Positions 36,001 to 51,000 of a stretch of 64,000 nucleotides of DNA are shown here, piece by piece (position 1 is the stretch's first letter; every line of letters begins with the position of its first letter). Position numbers: made by a program. The stretch comes from Escherichia coli (lineage in GTDB: Bacteria; Pseudomonadota; Gammaproteobacteria; Enterobacterales; Enterobacteriaceae), in NCBI RefSeq assembly GCF_030013595.1, contig NZ_CP122768.1; one strand, given 5' to 3'.

Positions 36001-39000
36001 GCATTGCCGATCTGGATTCCTGTTGTAAAAACGGGATCGCCTCCCTCAGCCAGTTATATTCCACGCTATGGTTCACTGGTGCTACAAACAGCGTTTCCGG
36101 CAAAGACGTTAAAAAATAACGCGCCGAATGTTGCAGCCGAAGAGTGCCACAGACAATACAGGTCGATTCATTATCGACATGACTCAGGCGATGAGCTGAA
36201 TTTTGTGGTAGCAGGACCACATTTCCCGGGCGTAATGTAAAAATCTCTCCCGTCGGCATTTCCAGCTTCGCCGCTCCTTGCGTTAACGCATGCCAACGAA
36301 TAACCGACAATTCCCCGGCACCATGTGGAAGTTGCCAGTCACTTCCTAACACGCAATTCTTATCGATCGTTCCTTGTGGAGCGTTAAGCATCAACAAACG
36401 GCTAAGAGCATCCATATCAGACTCCTGAGTAGTTTTTTAATTACAAACACCAACAATCTTAGTCAATAATTAATCTAATACCATCAAATAGTTAATCATG
36501 ATTTTTGTTTTGTGATTCTGATTAAGAAAAAGAAAATACCAGACGATAAGACAAAATATCAAGCGTTGTGAAGAAATGTTATGTGCTCTTTTGCGTCTAT
36601 AGTCATGATGTCAAATGAACGCGTTTCGACAGGAAATCATCATGAATAAATATCAGGCAGTGATTATTGGTTTTGGCAAGGCTGGAAAAACATTAGCCGT
36701 CACGCTGGCAAAAGCAGGTTGGCGTGTGGCTCTCATCGAACAATCAAATGCAATGTATGGCGGGACCTGTATTAATATCGGCTGTATCCCAACCAAAACA
36801 TTGGTTCATGACGCACAGCAGCACACAGATTTTGTCCGTGCCATACAGCGTAAAAATGAAGTGGTTAATTTTTTACGTAATAAGAATTTTCATAATCTTG
36901 CGGATATGCCCAATATCGACGTGATCGACGGCCAGGCGGAGTTTATCAATAATCATAGCCTGCGTGTTCATCGGCCTGAGGGAAATCTGGAGATTCATGG
37001 CGAGAAAATTTTTATTAATACCGGTGCACAAACCGTGGTTCCGCCAATTCCTGGAATTACCACCACGCCTGGTGTATATGACAGCACCGGATTACTTAAT
37101 CTAAAAGAATTGCCTGGGCATTTAGGTATTTTGGGCGGCGGATATATTGGCGTTGAGTTCGCCTCTATGTTCGCTAATTTTGGCAGCAAGGTAACCATTT
37201 TAGAAGCAGCTTCGCTGTTTTTGCCTCGGGAAGATCGGGATATTGCTGATAATATCGCGACGATTTTACGCGATCAGGGCGTCGATATTATCCTCAATGC
37301 CCATGTGGAGCGAATCAGTCACCATGAAAATCAAGTGCAAGTGCATAGCGAGCACGCCCAACTGGCGGTGGATGCACTGTTAATAGCTTCCGGTCGTCAA
37401 CCAGCTACCGCTTCGTTACATCCAGAAAATGCCGGTATCGCAGTAAACGAGCGCGGGGCAATTGTCGTTGACAAGCGATTACATACCACCGCAGACAATA
37501 TTTGGGCGATGGGAGATGTTACCGGCGGGCTGCAATTTACTTACATATCACTAGATGATTACCGCATTGTACGTGATGAGTTACTGGGTGAAGGCAAACG
37601 TAGTACTGATGATCGGAAAAATGTGCCTTATTCCGTATTTATGACACCGCCCCTGTCCAGGGTTGGTATGACAGAAGAACAAGCCAGAGAGAGTGGTGCT
37701 GATATTCAGGTGGTGACATTGCCTGTAGCTGCAATTCCGCGCGCCAGAGTGATGAACGATACCCGTGGGGTATTAAAAGCGATTGTTGATAATAAAACCC
37801 AACGTATATTAGGGGCATCACTGCTGTGTGTTGACACGAGAGTATTCAAAACACGCCAATAACCTCTTGATTCAATTGAAGTCGAAAATTTTAAGTCAAA
37901 AATCGTATAGCTTAACGTGTAGCTAAAAATGTTTGCTGCAAAAGTATACAATTTTAACCGTTATGACTCCCTGTTATCCGTTATCAAGCTGGTGGATGAT
38001 CATGGATAACCCGTTATGGGAATCCCCATATCGGCATCAGGCCCATGCCATAACAAAAACCCCATATTCGTGGGTTTTCTGTGTTGTGGCTATTCTGCCG
38101 TTGCCGTGCTGGTGGATATTTCCGGTATGTGGCTCACCATATCGGCATCACGCCCACCAGCGCGACGCATTTTTTTAATTTCGCGGGTGTAAAAATTTGA
38201 CGGGGCGGGCGGTCCTATAAGCAATGGGGGGTAGGGATTTCGATCCCCCCTCCTGAATGCAATTTTCCGTATGTGGCTGTGCGGCAATCATACTCGTCAC
38301 ATGTTTTTGACAATAAAAGGCCCGACCGTGAGACTCACAAACAAAAAAGTTACGGAGAAACAGGGGATCGGGCTCGGTTGCCGCTAAATCTATTCAATTA
38401 AAAGAAGATGTCAATAGGGAAAACGAAAAAAAACAATGCTGATATTGTCATAATTTGAACAAAACCACTATATGTAGTTTTAGTTCATGAGGTTAGTCGC
38501 TACCAGATGCGTCAATAGTTTTTTGCTATTAATAATCCCTCTTTTTCCATCGGGAGCTTTGCACTTGTCACTACCTGGTAACTCCTGGTGGCGTTCCTGT
38601 TGCAGCACAACGGAAACAGGCGCTGAACACCTGTTAATTTTGCTTGCAGGTTGTTTGATTTCGGCAATGCTGCGGATCATCTCCAGCATATCGGCTTCGG
38701 TGATGGTCATGATTTACACCTTAGGAAATCTTAGGGGCTGGTTGACACTTTCCGGCTTAAGACCTTAACAAATCTTAACATCGCAGGTTGACACACTTGA
38801 CACTTTTTCGCGAAAAACCTTATCAAACCTTAGCATTTCTAAGCATGGCAACTTGACACTTTTCGCGATTTTTTCGGCTTTTTGACGTGGTAAATCTGGC
38901 GCAAAGCCAGTAACGGCGGGGTTTACAGCGAGGTTGACACTTTTTCGCGTTCAGAGTGTAAAGTGTCAACCTGGCAAGCTGCTCAACTTGACACTTTTTG

Positions 39001-48000: not shown

Positions 48001-51000
48001 ATTCTGGCCTTTTTTCATCTCGTACCAGTCCGAGGCAACTTTTTCGAACGTGTTGCCCTTTTTCCGGCTCTCTGCTTCACGTTTCCGGCGTTCATGGTCC
48101 TGTGGGTCAGTTCCCTTTGCTATTAGTGACCTGTATTCATTCCGTCGCTCTCTGGCATCAGACAGGGAAACATCATTCAGCGATCCAAGGCTGATAATAG
48201 TCCGTTTTTTATCTGCCGGGCGGTAGTACGTAAAACGCCATATTTTTGATCCGGAGGGCTTCACCAGAAGAAATAATCCTCCGCCATCCTGCAGGGTGTA
48301 TTCCTTTTCCCCTGGTCGTGCGTTTTTGATCTCCGTAATGGTTAGTGGGGTGGTTTTTCGTGCCATGTTTTTTTACCCATCGGTAGCTATATGCCTGGTC
48401 GTAGCTATACGGCTTTAGCTACACGCTGGACCGTATAGCTAAACGTGTAGCTAAAAAATCCGGTTATAACCCTATCTTACCGATTCAATCCGGCGACTGA
48501 AAACAACAAAAAAGCCCGTTAATCAGTAAATTAACGGGCTTTCAATAGGTTACCGATGCTGTCCGATATTCAATTTGGTCGGCACGAGATGATCAATATA
48601 GTGAAAATGGTGATGGATGCCGGGCTGCCTTATAGCATATTACGCGATCAGATATTTACTCATCCGTCGATGAGCGAATCACTCAATGATCTATTTTCAT
48701 TAGTCAAATAAACTCAAAATCAGACGCCAGAACAAATATTCTGGCGTCTCAGAGAAAAGAATCTTATTAATTCCCTGTTACTTTATAACTTCTTAATCAC
48801 TTCATTGATGGTATTTTATATGTTTAAAAAACCTGTTTTATTTGCAACACTATTATCTGGCGTTATGGCATTTTCCACCAATGCAGATGATAAAATAATT
48901 CTGAAACATATCAGCGTCTCGTCAGTATCAGCATCACCGACAGTTCTTGAGGATGCCATTGCTGATATGGCCAGAAAATATAATGCTTCATCCTGGAAAG
49001 TTACATCGATGCGAATTGATAATAATTCAACCGCAACAGCAGTATTGTATAAATAAGGATGTTCACAATGGAAAAATACCTGCACCTGTTAAGTCAGGGA
49101 GATAAAATTGGCCTGACATTGATTCGTCTGAGTATTGCGATTGTTTTTATGTGGATTGGGTTATTAAAGTTTGTCCCTTACGAGGCAGACAGCATTACAC
49201 CATTCGTCGCAAACAGTCCACTAATGTCGTTCTTTTATGAACACCCGGAAGACTATAAACAGTATCTGACTCACGAAGGCGAATACAAACCAGAAGCAAG
49301 GGCATGGCAAACGGCCAATAATACCTATGGTTTTTCCAACGGTCTTGGCGTCGTGGAGGTGATTATTGCTCTGCTGGTTTTGGCTAATCCTGTCAATCGC
49401 TGGTTAGGTTTATTGGGAGGGCTGATGGCATTTACCACACCGTTGGTAACACTCTCATTTTTAATCACCACCCCGGAGGCATGGGTACCCGCATTGGGTG
49501 ACGCTCATCATGGTTTCCCTTATTTATCCGGTGCTGGTCGCCTGGTATTGAAAGATACTCTGATGCTGGCAGGTGCTGTCATGATAATGGCAGATTCGGC
49601 GCGGGACATTCTTAAACAACGCAGTAATGAATCCAGTTCAACGTTAAAAACTGAATATTGATAATCCGAACACTGTCTGTTGTTCACTTTTTCAGGCGTC
49701 AGGCCCCCTTTCTGATGATGAAGCCTGACGCCATATTACCGGAGATATGACAGAGTGAAGATCAATATCACTCCCCTGTTAAAAGATTCTTGTCGTCTCA
49801 GGTAAAATACATGATTAATATCAATCATGTATTTTTACAGCAAGACAACCACGAACAAACTCAGGATTAAAATGTTTTACCGATTCCCCAACATAACCCA
49901 AATCAAGCGAACTAATTTGCGCCATTTCTTTCTCTGTCAGTGAGAAATCCCAAATAGCAAAATTTTCTTCGATACGCTGTTGATGTGTCGATTTCGGAAT
50001 AACGACCACTCCCCGTTGAATATTCCAACGCAGAATGACTTGAGAAATCGATTTTTGATGGGCATCTGCAATACTCTGAAGCAGATTATTTTCAAAGGGT
50101 TTATGTCGTCCACCACCTAACGGAGCCCATGCTTCAGGCTGCACGATATAATACTTCATGGTTGCCAGCGCCTCTGGTTGGGCAAAATAGGGATGCAACT
50201 CGACCTGGTTGACCATCGGTTTAACTCTTACCGTTTCACAAAAGTTCGCCAGAACATGAGGATAGAAATTGGAAACCCCAATCGCTTTTAATTTGCCCTC
50301 TTCATAGGCATCTTCGAGTGCACGCCACGCACTGAAATAATCGCGCATAGCCTGGTGCAATAAATAGAGGTCGAAGTATTCTAGTCCCGATTTTTTTAAT
50401 GACGCTTCAATACCTGCTTTTGCCGTATCCTGATTCAACATATCCTGCACCCACAATTTAGACGTTATAAATAACTCTTCTCGGGTACATAAACCTTCAG
50501 ATATGGCTTCACGAACGGCTTCACCGACGGCATCTTCATTACCGTATACCGCTGCAGTGTCGATGAGTCGATAACCCGTGCGGATAGCATTCAGCACTGA
50601 CTGTTTGCACACGTCTTTATCGGTAACCTGAAAAACACCAAATCCCATCATCGGCATTTTCAGATTGTTACTTAATACGGAAAATTCCACTGTCAGTCCC
50701 TCCATTAGGCATGAACAATGAGTCTACGTTAAAACGTAACCTCAAATTAGTATGTGGATTTTGATATCACTTATGCAAAAAATTCATTAATAATGTAGGA
50801 CTGAAACCTCTCTATTTTTGGGGCAATGAAGCAGACGCTATCAGTGCTTTTGCCTTGGGCCTTGCTGTTTTTGATACACTTAGGGCCCAGGGCATAACGA
50901 AAATGTGCGATATGACAAAGAATTAATGGAGAATGTGATGATCAGGCAGAAGATTCTACAGCAGCTCCTGGAGTGGATTGAGTGCAATCTCGAGCACCCT

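What the first reader, a model, noticed from the sequence alone, without database searches (positions are those of the whole stretch)
37845..48583. ~10.7-kb integrase-bearing phage-satellite-like element inserted into the 3' end of rclA
rclA is split. Its 5' part (through ...GASLLCVD, ending near 37844) and the last ~42 codons (HEMINIVK...THPSMSESLNDLFSLVK, 48583-48711) are separated by about 10.7 kb containing a P4-type integrase, AlpA, a replication ATPase with a downstream iteron origin, and a leftward operon of small genes. That is the architecture of P4-like satellites and phage-inducible chromosomal islands (PICIs). The truncated RclA loses the C-terminal interface region with the HPxxSE active-site motif, so the reactive-chlorine defence enzyme is probably inactive while rclB and rclC are separated from the rclA promoter. 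A satellite using a stress-defence gene as its attachment site, rather than a tRNA gene, is unusual. The exact junctions are unclear: about 60 bp and 120 bp of non-rclA sequence lie between the rclA fragments and the terminal repeats.
Basis: partly seen in the sequence, partly recalled or inferred. Interest (0 to 1): 0.85.

Follow-up and report, generated by a model that had tools for sequence, protein, structure and literature searches.

The report
tRNA-Pro phage satellite mis-integrated in rclA
A 10.7-kb phage satellite (a PICI) that normally inserts next to a proline tRNA gene has landed in a look-alike 7-base site inside the oxidant-defence gene rclA, breaking that gene and cutting rclB and rclC off from their promoter; this is a rare off-target event of a known kind of element.

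Summary
rclA is split at codon 398/399 by a 10,748-bp element (attL core 37835-37841, attR core 48583-48589).

The element is an E. coli PICI of the EcCICFT073 type, not a P4-like satellite. It carries a P4-type integrase, AlpA, an Icd-like gene, DUF4222, a RepA-type replicase with 8 iterons, ProQ/FinO, PerC, a protein with a prohead-protease fold, and a cos site identical over 44 bp to that of Stx2e phage phiP27.

rclA is not its dedicated attachment site. A 1-residue variant of its integrase (WP_000101918.1) sits beside tRNA-Pro (proL) in other strains. The element's right end carries the 3' end of proL plus a replacement terminator. rclA shares only CACGAGA with that site.

Among 5,426 complete E. 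coli genomes, 111 carry this junction at proL and 5 at rclA. In both rclA-occupied genomes checked, proL already held a sister PICI.

Four bases of rclA are missing at attL. This matches the "damage" reported for PICIs at tRNA sites, so excision would leave a frameshift.

Verdict: ordinary kind, new site, modest interest.

The parts
36642..37834 (+). rclA 5' fragment (codons 1-398). The open frame continues into the element and stops at 37862, adding TRVFKTRQ.
37835..37841 (+). attL crossover core CACGAGA. Four rclA bases (CTCC/TCCC) that should precede it are missing.
37904..37929 (+). Doubled arm-type motif CGTATAGCTTAACGTGTAGCTAAAAA in the left (P') arm; its centre lies about 79 bp from the core centre.
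   Evidence: same geometry as the doubled motif described in PMC10111431
38172..38215 (.). cos region, 44/44 identical to the phiP27 cos region. The annotated cos GGGGCGGGCG corresponds to 38202-38211. Flanking 35-bp repeats lie at 38011-38045 and 38122-38156.
38741..38998 (.). Six (C/G)TTGACACTTT repeats between orf76b and orf175; possible protein-binding sites, function unknown.
39004..39531 (-). 175-aa protein: N-terminal Xis/BldC/TerS-like winged helix-turn-helix plus a C-terminal domain with no structural match.
39702..40355 (-). DUF2213 protein with a prohead (capsid maturation) protease fold and a long C-terminal helix.
40420..41013 (-). 197-aa protein matching the C-terminal part of phrog_6216, the same PHROG family as DUF2213.
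41419..41706 (-). PerC-family regulator, a typical E. coli PICI accessory gene.
   Evidence: PMC6092414 Table S1
41703..42245 (-). ProQ/FinO-family RNA-chaperone-like protein.
42394..42712 (.). Iteron-type replication origin: 8 copies of CCTCACTTT(T/C) directly downstream of rep.
42712..44127 (-). Replicase (AAA_25 RepA-type helicase). Its N-terminal 131 aa are 62% identical to the EcCICFT073 Pri-Rep protein.
44124..45383 (-). DUF4222, a 66-aa ORF, a 121-aa ORF and an Icd-like gene, in the same order as in EcCICFT073.
45568..45849 (+). YlcI/YnfO-family gene on the opposite strand, followed by + strand terminators at 46241-46260 and 46361-46388.
46420..46626 (-). alpA (Phage_AlpA, PF05930): regulator/excisionase.
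47125..48366 (-). P4-type tyrosine integrase with an arm-binding domain; 1 aa different from WP_000101918.1, which is found at proL.
48383..48457 (+). Right (P) arm: TAGCTA arm-type motifs, including the second doubled motif at 48432-48457, whose centre lies about 141 bp from the core centre.
48510..48543 (-). 15-bp-stem terminator facing leftward. At the primary site it terminates proL transcription.
48574..48589 (+). attR: TTTGGTCGG (a copy of the proL 3' end, carried by the element) plus core CACGAGA (48583-48589).
48583..48711 (+). rclA 3' fragment (last 42 codons plus stop), followed by rclB (48820-49056) and rclC (to 49661).

Best explanation
The insert is an Escherichia coli phage-inducible chromosomal island (PICI) of the EcCICFT073 type. 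Its tyrosine integrase is specific for the 3' end of the tRNA-Pro gene proL (the yejM-yejO locus).

**Shown here**
- The circular form (attP ...GATTTGGTCGG CACGAGA GTATTCAAAAC...) recombined with a pseudo-attB inside rclA (GTTGACTCC CACGAGA TGATCAA) within the shared 7-bp core.
- attP carries a replacement for the proL 3' end, not for rclA. RclA is therefore truncated after residue 398.
- rclBC is separated from the RclR-dependent promoter.
- The chromosomal side of attL lost 4 bp directly abutting the core. This is the same "damage" that PICIs leave in displaced tRNA fragments.

**Inferred**
- Even clean integrase-mediated excision would leave rclA frameshifted.
- Life cycle, by analogy with EcCICFT073: a helper phage switches on alpA. 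AlpA drives excision and the leftward operon. The replicase fires the iteron origin.
- Concatemers are then cut and packaged at the phiP27-type cos site by the HNH/terminase machinery of a phiP27-like helper.
- The protease-fold protein and its neighbours tamper with helper capsid assembly.
- Off-target integration most likely happened because proL was already occupied by a sister PICI.
For: **Junctions and integrase**
- Junctions mapped to the base against K-12.
- The K-12 empty proL site reads TTTTTGGTCGGCACGAGAGGATTTGAACC. The element's right end reproduces TTTGGTCGGCACGAGA and supplies a leftward terminator.

**Frequency and recurrence**
- 111 genomes carry the junction at proL and 5 at rclA, out of 5,426.
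- The rclA inserts differ in cargo, arms and junction (0, -1, -3, -3, -4 and 0 bp), so there were several independent events.

**Mobility and family**
- Metagenome contig L015 contains the attP join, colinear with the window's right and left ends.
- Window proteins are 99-100% identical, for all but three small ORFs, to the proL copy in ETEC6335. The window shares gene order and 53-73% identical Icd, DUF4222, Rep N-terminus and PerC with EcCICFT073.
- cos is 44/44 identical to phiP27 and also matches the termini of Burkholderia phage genomes.

**Literature**
- tRNA-Pro PICIs, their CTCT-CGTG identity block, PICI-specific "damage" and off-target integration are described in PMC10111431.
- The yejM site and the perC accessory gene appear in PMC6092414 Table S1.
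Against: - No experiment shows induction, excision or transfer of this copy.
- proL of the window's own genome is outside the window, so "primary site occupied" is extrapolated from 2 of 2 relatives.
- Sister copies within one genome are only 96.7-99.9% identical and are mosaic. Superinfection and intragenomic hopping therefore cannot be told apart.
- No clear TerS or Rpp homologue and no capsid homologue is present, so the hijacking steps are conjecture.
- CACGAGA alone occurs 4 more times in the window. What makes the rclA copy a preferred pseudo-site is unexplained.
- The 4-bp loss may cripple the attL core-binding site, so this copy may be stuck.
Confidence: 0.85

Rival explanations
1. rclA is a genuine, evolved (primary) attachment site of a PICI lineage that has switched target, perhaps giving regulated integrity of the rcl operon.
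For: Six occupancies at exactly the same position, by elements with different cargo and two integrase alleles that are 83% identical. PICI integrases are known to target protein genes (PMC10111431).
Against: WP_000101918.1, one residue from the window's integrase, also sits at proL. attP retains the proL 3' end and a proL terminator and carries nothing that restores rclA. proL outnumbers rclA about 20:1. Four of six rclA junctions carry deletions, of which three (-1, -4) are frameshifting and one (-3) is in frame, so excision would not restore the gene.
Confidence: 0.06
2. The strain did not undergo integration itself. It inherited or acquired an rclA::PICI allele by homologous recombination (transduction or conjugation of the region), and the element is now an immobile remnant.
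For: The 4-bp loss at attL removes bases next to the cleavage site and may block excision. Mosaicism between sister copies shows frequent homologous exchange among PICIs.
Against: All element genes are intact and mostly 100% identical to a proL copy. The -4 junction is unique among the six rclA occupancies. An attP join exists in a metagenome contig. This rival concerns only how the allele reached this strain, not what the allele is.
Confidence: 0.07
3. The element is a P4-like satellite, dependent on P2-type helpers, as the reader offered as an alternative.
For: P4-type integrase, AlpA, an Icd-like gene and a size of about 11 kb.
Against: No Psu, Delta or Sid hits in PHROGs or NCBIfam for any ORF of suitable size. 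The replicase is an AAA_25 RepA type with an EcCICFT073-like N-terminus. cos matches phiP27, not P2/P4. Gene order matches EcCICFT073.
Confidence: 0.02

Closest known systems
tRNA-Pro (yejM-yejO) PICIs of E. coli and Shigella: EcCIED1a.1, EcCIATCC25922, SdCI1012, SbCISb277 (Fillol-Salom 2018, PMC6092414; remapped to tRNA-Pro by Tommasini et al. 2023, PMC10111431)
   Same: Same crossover identity block (CTCTCGTG = CACGAGAG). Same integrase type and the same int-alpA-icd-rep backbone. Doubled arm-type motifs in both arms. Variable deletions in the displaced target fragment, starting at the same base.
   Different: This copy sits in rclA, not proL. The arm-motif sequence differs (GTATAGCT/GTGTAGCT versus GTAGTTATAC). 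The late module has a protease-fold protein and a phiP27-type cos instead of capsid, decoration and Rpp genes with a lambda-type cos.
EcCICFT073, the experimentally characterised E. coli cos PICI (PMC6092414, PMC6739421)
   Same: Same gene order. Icd-like 73%, DUF4222 68%, Rep N-terminus 62% and PerC 53% identical. AlpA regulator, iteron origin downstream of rep, cos packaging, about 11 kb. Chi-rich like the window element.
   Different: Integrase only 25% identical, with a different site (ycfD-phoQ). EcCICFT073 has a major capsid homologue, a decoration protein, Rpp and lambda/phi80-type cosN; none of these is present here.
Off-target (secondary-site) integration: lambda secondary attachment sites; off-target HE-PICIs (28 cases, PMC10111431); the SGI1 secondary site (PMC2297512)
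   Same: A site-specific integrase uses a chromosomal sequence that matches mainly in the crossover core, at much lower frequency, and typically when the normal site is unavailable.
   Different: Here one pseudo-site within a coding gene has been hit repeatedly in nature. It also carries the PICI-specific junction deletions.
cos SaPIs such as SaPIbov5 (own knowledge)
   Same: A satellite that carries a copy of its helper's cos site and relies on an HNH-terminase helper of the HK97 type.
   Different: Different phylum, no sequence relationship, and a different capsid-redirection protein.

Membership tests
Gram-negative PICI (EcCI type; criteria of PMC6092414 and SatelliteFinder, PMC10085698) | Tyrosine integrase at one end | tested here: met
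   PHROG 1, NF007246 at 558 bits, Pfam arm + central + catalytic domains
Gram-negative PICI (EcCI type; criteria of PMC6092414 and SatelliteFinder, PMC10085698) | AlpA-type regulator next to int, with mostly unidirectional transcription | tested here: met
   PF05930 E = 5.5e-8. All but one gene lie on the - strand.
Gram-negative PICI (EcCI type; criteria of PMC6092414 and SatelliteFinder, PMC10085698) | Primase/replicase module followed by an iteron origin | tested here: met
   AAA_25 replicase with N-terminus 62% identical to EcCICFT073 Pri-Rep; 8 iterons at 42394-42712
Gram-negative PICI (EcCI type; criteria of PMC6092414 and SatelliteFinder, PMC10085698) | Capsid-morphogenesis gene (major-capsid homologue in E. 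coli type A PICIs) | tested here: inconclusive
Gram-negative PICI (EcCI type; criteria of PMC6092414 and SatelliteFinder, PMC10085698) | Small terminase or Rpp-type packaging redirector | tested here: inconclusive
   orf175 has only a 42-aa TerS-like/Xis-like wHTH (phrog_57 E = 5e-7; Foldseek hit to Xis). No hit to any solved structure, and none to EcCICFT073 proteins.
Gram-negative PICI (EcCI type; criteria of PMC6092414 and SatelliteFinder, PMC10085698) | No tail, lysis or portal genes; size about 8-15 kb | tested here: met
   10.7 kb; no such PHROG hits
Gram-negative PICI (EcCI type; criteria of PMC6092414 and SatelliteFinder, PMC10085698) | Helper-phage-dependent induction, packaging and high-frequency transfer | not testable with these tools
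   Indirect evidence only: a phiP27-type cos and an attP join in a metagenome contig
tRNA-Pro-targeting PICI integrase group | Crossover identity block CACGAGAG shared by attL and attR | tested here: met
   alignments in the PMC10111431 supplements
tRNA-Pro-targeting PICI integrase group | attP carries a replacement for the proL 3' end (plus terminator), and the same integrase is found at proL | tested here: met
tRNA-Pro-targeting PICI integrase group | Insertion at proL | tested here: not met
   This copy is in rclA, so it is an off-target event by a member integrase.
tRNA-Pro-targeting PICI integrase group | Variable-length deletion ("damage") of the displaced target fragment, starting at a fixed base next to the core | tested here: met
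   proL attL: 0, -1, -1 with a substitution, -2, -4. rclA attL: 0, -1, -3, -4. All are anchored at |CACGAGA.
P4-like satellites (SatelliteFinder: int, psu, delta, sid, alpA, epsilon/ash, alpha) | psu-delta-sid capsid-hijack operon | tested here: not met
   No PHROG or NCBIfam hit of that kind for any ORF of 170-220 aa
P4-like satellites (SatelliteFinder: int, psu, delta, sid, alpA, epsilon/ash, alpha) | P4 alpha-type primase-helicase and P2-type cos | tested here: not met
   The replicase is an AAA_25 RepA type. cos matches phiP27.

The most novel reading that the evidence does not exclude
The nested 1-4-bp deletions anchored at |CACGAGA occur at a protein-coding off-target as well as at tRNA-Pro. 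They would then be an intrinsic by-product of this PICI integrase's strand-cleavage chemistry: trimming of the chromosomal arm at the top-strand cut. Two things would follow. Natural junction scars would map the cleavage site. And every PICI visit would be a one-way mutagenic event, because excision leaves a broken tRNA or, here, a frameshifted rclA. PICIs would then act as hit-and-run mutagens or addiction elements at secondary sites too.
Probability: 0.35. Interest if true: 0.55.

Novelty: new member of a known kind. Interest (0 to 1): 0.4.

Why it matters
**For the strain.** It very probably lacks a working RclA (Cu(II) reductase and HOSCN reductase; PMC7527725, PMC9335216) and inducible RclBC. 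It should therefore be more sensitive to hypochlorite and hypothiocyanite from host innate immunity. Because of the 4-bp scar, the defect would not revert on excision.

**For satellite biology.**
- It adds a recurrent natural secondary site for tRNA-Pro PICIs. rclA is not among the 8 E. coli PICI sites listed in PMC6092414.
- It is associated with an occupied primary site.
- It shows that PICI-type target "damage" is not restricted to tRNA genes.
- The phiP27-type cos points to Stx2e-converting phages of pig E. coli as likely helpers. That link is testable, and no paper in the searchable library mentions phiP27 together with PICIs.

Tried and rejected
1. **The 26-bp direct repeats as att sites.** Rejected: they are internal and lie 63 bp and 126 bp from the true crossover cores.
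2. **The missing bases as a natural rclA allele.** Rejected: a synthetic allele lacking the 3 bases found no exact match. All ~5,105 uninterrupted sites align with a 3-bp gap.
3. **A short-form attP (TTTGG.CACGAGAG) with crossover in TTTGG.** This fits the -4 attL at proL but not the rclA attR, which carries TCGG from attP. The attP contig L015 has the long form.
4. **A lambda-type cosN as in EcCICFT073.** Absent from the element.
5. **orf175 as Rpp or TerS.** No match to any solved structure by sequence. No hit to EcCICFT073 proteins. The fold search matched only a 50-residue Xis/BldC-like wHTH.
6. **PICI proteins as homologues of phiP27 head genes.** None found.
7. **Rfam families in the element.** None credible.
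8. **PADLOC defence systems.** None.
9. **An attP junction in IMG/VR viral contigs.** None. One was found in a metagenome contig instead.
10. **Literature naming rclA or ykgC as an integration site.** None found.
11. **tRNA genes inside the region.** None.

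
Full report
**1.

The window carries rclR (35561-36415, -), then an rclA reading frame that ends ...GASLLCVD and runs into a stop at 37862. About 10.7 kb later come the last 42 rclA codons (48583-48711), then rclB and rclC.

K-12 rclA reads GTTGAC TCC CACGAGA TGATCAAT across the break. 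The window reads GTTGA-CACGAGA-GTATTCAAAAC at the left junction and CAATTTGGTCGG-CACGAGA-TGATCAAT at the right. The insert is therefore bounded by two copies of CACGAGA (37835-37841 and 48583-48589), giving a unit length of 10,748 bp. Four rclA bases (CTCC/TCCC) are missing on the left.

About 5,105 of 5,426 complete E. coli genomes have this site uninterrupted.

**2. What the insert is**

All but one gene lies on the - strand. In order from the right end:
- A 413-aa integrase with Arm-DNA-bind_3, Phage_int_M and Phage_integrase domains (NF007246, 558 bits).
- A 76-aa ORF.
- AlpA (PF05930).
- A YlcI/YnfO gene on the + strand.
- An Icd-like gene, two small ORFs and DUF4222.
- An AAA_25 RepA-type replicase, followed directly by eight CCTCACTTT(T/C) iterons.
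- A ProQ/FinO-family protein and a PerC-family regulator.
- Four further ORFs.

This is the gene order of the experimentally studied PICI EcCICFT073. The window shares with it Icd-like (73% identity), DUF4222 (68%), the replicase N-terminus (62%) and PerC (53%). perC is listed as a typical accessory gene of E. coli PICIs (PMC6092414 Table S1).

No ORF resembles Psu, Delta or Sid, so the element is a PICI and not a P4-like satellite.

**3. The integrase belongs to tRNA-Pro, not to rclA**

- *Same integrase at proL.* In ETEC4077 a near-identical element lies between yejO and the tRNA-Pro gene proL. Its integrase, WP_000101918.1, differs from the window's by one residue.
- *Empty and occupied proL.* The K-12 empty site reads GGGATTTTTGGTCGG CACGAGA GGATTTGAACC. 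At occupied proL sites the integrase-proximal junction reads ...CGATTTGGTCGG CACGAGA GGATTTGAACC.
- *What the element carries.* The element therefore supplies TTTGGTCGGCACGAGA(G), the reverse complement of the tRNA's 3' end. It also supplies a 15-bp-stem terminator facing leftward (48543-48510), which replaces the proL terminator. In the window these same bases abut rclA, where they restore nothing.
- *How far rclA resembles proL.* The two sites share only CACGAGA, plus TTG five bases upstream of the core and GAT one base downstream of it. CACGAGA occurs four more times in the window without being used.
- *Published record.* The Williams laboratory remapped the "yejM" PICIs to tRNA-Pro, and their supplementary alignments show the same identity block, CTCT-CGTG (PMC10111431).

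**4. The "terminal repeats"**

The 26-bp repeats (37904-37929 and 48432-48457) are doubled motifs. Their centres lie about 79 bp and 141 bp from the core centres, and more TAGCTA motifs occur in the right arm.

The integrase has an arm-binding domain. HE-PICIs also show a doubled motif, at 81 bp and 132 bp from the attP centre (PMC10111431). I therefore read the repeats as arm-type binding sites; this is an inference.

**5. How often, and under what circumstances**

- The proL junction with this arm is present in 111 of 5,426 complete genomes.
- Those five, plus the window, differ from one another. The late module is a protease-fold module in some and capsid, decoration and terS genes in others. 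Left-arm type differs. The integrase allele differs (TW08637 is 83% identical). The junction differs.
- Several independent integrations is the simplest reading.
- rclA is not among the eight PICI sites listed for E. coli. It does not appear in PMC10111431 or its supplements, nor in any paper found.
- Set against a 2% background occupancy, this links rclA insertion to an occupied primary site, as with secondary sites of lambda (own knowledge; cited in PMC10111431).
- Sister copies are 96.7-99.9% identical and mosaic. Superinfection by a related PICI and re-integration of a resident one cannot be distinguished.

**6. Junction scars**

The displaced target fragment at attL shows nested losses, all anchored at the base before CACGAGA.

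| Site | Genome or contig | Bases lost at attL |
|---|---|---|
| rclA | U90, MFDS1022581 | 0 |
| rclA | TW08637 | 1 |
| rclA | window | 4 |
| proL | L018 | 0 |
| proL | ETEC4077, ETEC6335 | 1 |
| proL | L014, L016 | 1, with a substitution |
| proL | L017, L019 | 2 |
| proL | UMNF18, PSS-15, APEC17 | 4 |

- attR is always intact.
- No uninterrupted rclA carries the 3-bp loss.
- This is the "damage" reported as specific to PICIs at tRNA genes, including Pro, and suggested to act like an addiction module (PMC10111431).
- The new point is that it also occurs at a protein-coding off-target.
- Consequence (inferred): crossover between the window's attL and attR would yield GTTGACACGAGATGATC, a frameshifted rclA.
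- How the bases are lost is unexplained. My guess is trimming of the chromosomal arm at the top-strand cut.

**7. Evidence for mobility, and the likely helper**

- *attP join.* A metagenome contig (L015, AVOA01000223.1) joins the integrase-side arm to the left arm through GATTTGGTCGGCACGAGAGTATTC. It is colinear with window 46093-48589 plus 37835-38998. That is an attP, from either a circle or a tandem.
- *cos.* Window 38172-38215 is 44/44 identical to the cos region of Stx2e phage phiP27, including the annotated cos GGGGCGGGCG (38202-38211). In phiP27 it lies between the HNH endonuclease and terS genes. The same 44 bases match the genome termini of several Burkholderia phages.
- *What is absent.* There is no lambda-type cosN and no protein homology to phiP27 head genes.
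- *Prediction.* I predict packaging by phiP27-like helpers. Several of the closest relatives come from pig ETEC strains.
- *Neighbouring proteins.* The adjacent 197-aa protein hits the same PHROG family. The 175-aa protein has an Xis/TerS-like wHTH and a C-terminal domain with no structural match. Their roles in capsid or packaging interference are conjecture.

**8. Effect on the host**

- RclA loses residues 399-441, including THPSMSE. By analogy with the His-Glu dyad of flavoprotein disulfide reductases (own knowledge), it should be inactive.
- rclBC lies behind 10.7 kb of antisense genes and strong + strand terminators (46241-46388). No promoter-like site was found in the last 280 bp before rclB.
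- RclA protects against HOCl plus copper and reduces HOSCN (PMC7527725, PMC9335216), so sensitivity to these oxidants is expected. This was not tested.

**9. Verdict**

The element is a known kind of satellite, from a known integrase group with a known primary site.

What is new:
- the rclA pseudo-site and its recurrence;
- its link to an occupied proL;
- PICI "damage" at a non-tRNA target;
- the phiP27-type cos.

Novelty: new member of a known kind. Interest: about 0.4.

Noticed in passing
window 37988-47204; also L009, L004-L007, L020: Chi octamers (GCTGGTGG) are about 10-fold enriched in the PICI. Fifteen of the window's 22 lie in its 10.7 kb, on both strands (1.39/kb versus 0.13/kb in the flanks). 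Whole-window shuffles expect 1.9. Relatives, including EcCICFT073, have 0.8-1.5/kb. Two correctly oriented Chi sites lie 94-214 bp from cos. They may protect linear PICI DNA from RecBCD. I found no paper that reports this.
   Followed up: partly
window 39702-41013; proteins P0104-P0121: More distant homologues of the DUF2213 protease-fold protein are often fused to a NUDIX hydrolase domain. ETEC4077 has a separate NUDIX gene at the position of the window's 197-aa ORF. This suggests a recurrent NUDIX plus protease-fold module in satellites and phages, of unknown role.
   Followed up: partly
window 38741-38998: Six copies of (C/G)TTGACACTTT within 260 bp, between the 76-aa ORF (38480-38710) and the 175-aa wHTH gene. 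They could be operators or packaging-recognition repeats.
   Followed up: no
window 44979-46415 (- strand): A 478-codon stop-free frame. Only the last ~134 codons look like a real (Icd-like) protein; the Cys/Ser-rich upstream 340 codons overlap the YlcI/YnfO gene on the other strand. An open frame this long is unexpected by chance.
   Followed up: no
L007 (MFDS1022581) 3787-16280: This rclA-resident PICI combines an integrase-side arm of the window type with a left arm of the EcCIED1a/TW08637 type (CGTATAACCAAACGTATAACT). The two attP arms come from different lineages, which is evidence of recombination between PICIs.
   Followed up: no
L001 (ETEC6335 rclA copy) 8380-9692: The rclA copy in ETEC6335 carries an extra truncated DNA-primase gene next to its RepA helicase. 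Neither the window nor the proL copy has it, so this looks like a replication-module swap in progress.
   Followed up: no
L014, L016 (proL attL in IMG/VR and metagenome contigs): The attL reads TTTTTGGTCC|CACGAGAG, a G-to-C change plus a 1-bp loss. It produces TCCCACGAGAG, the same 11-mer as in native rclA. This could be coincidence, or bases carried over from an earlier stay in rclA.
   Followed up: no
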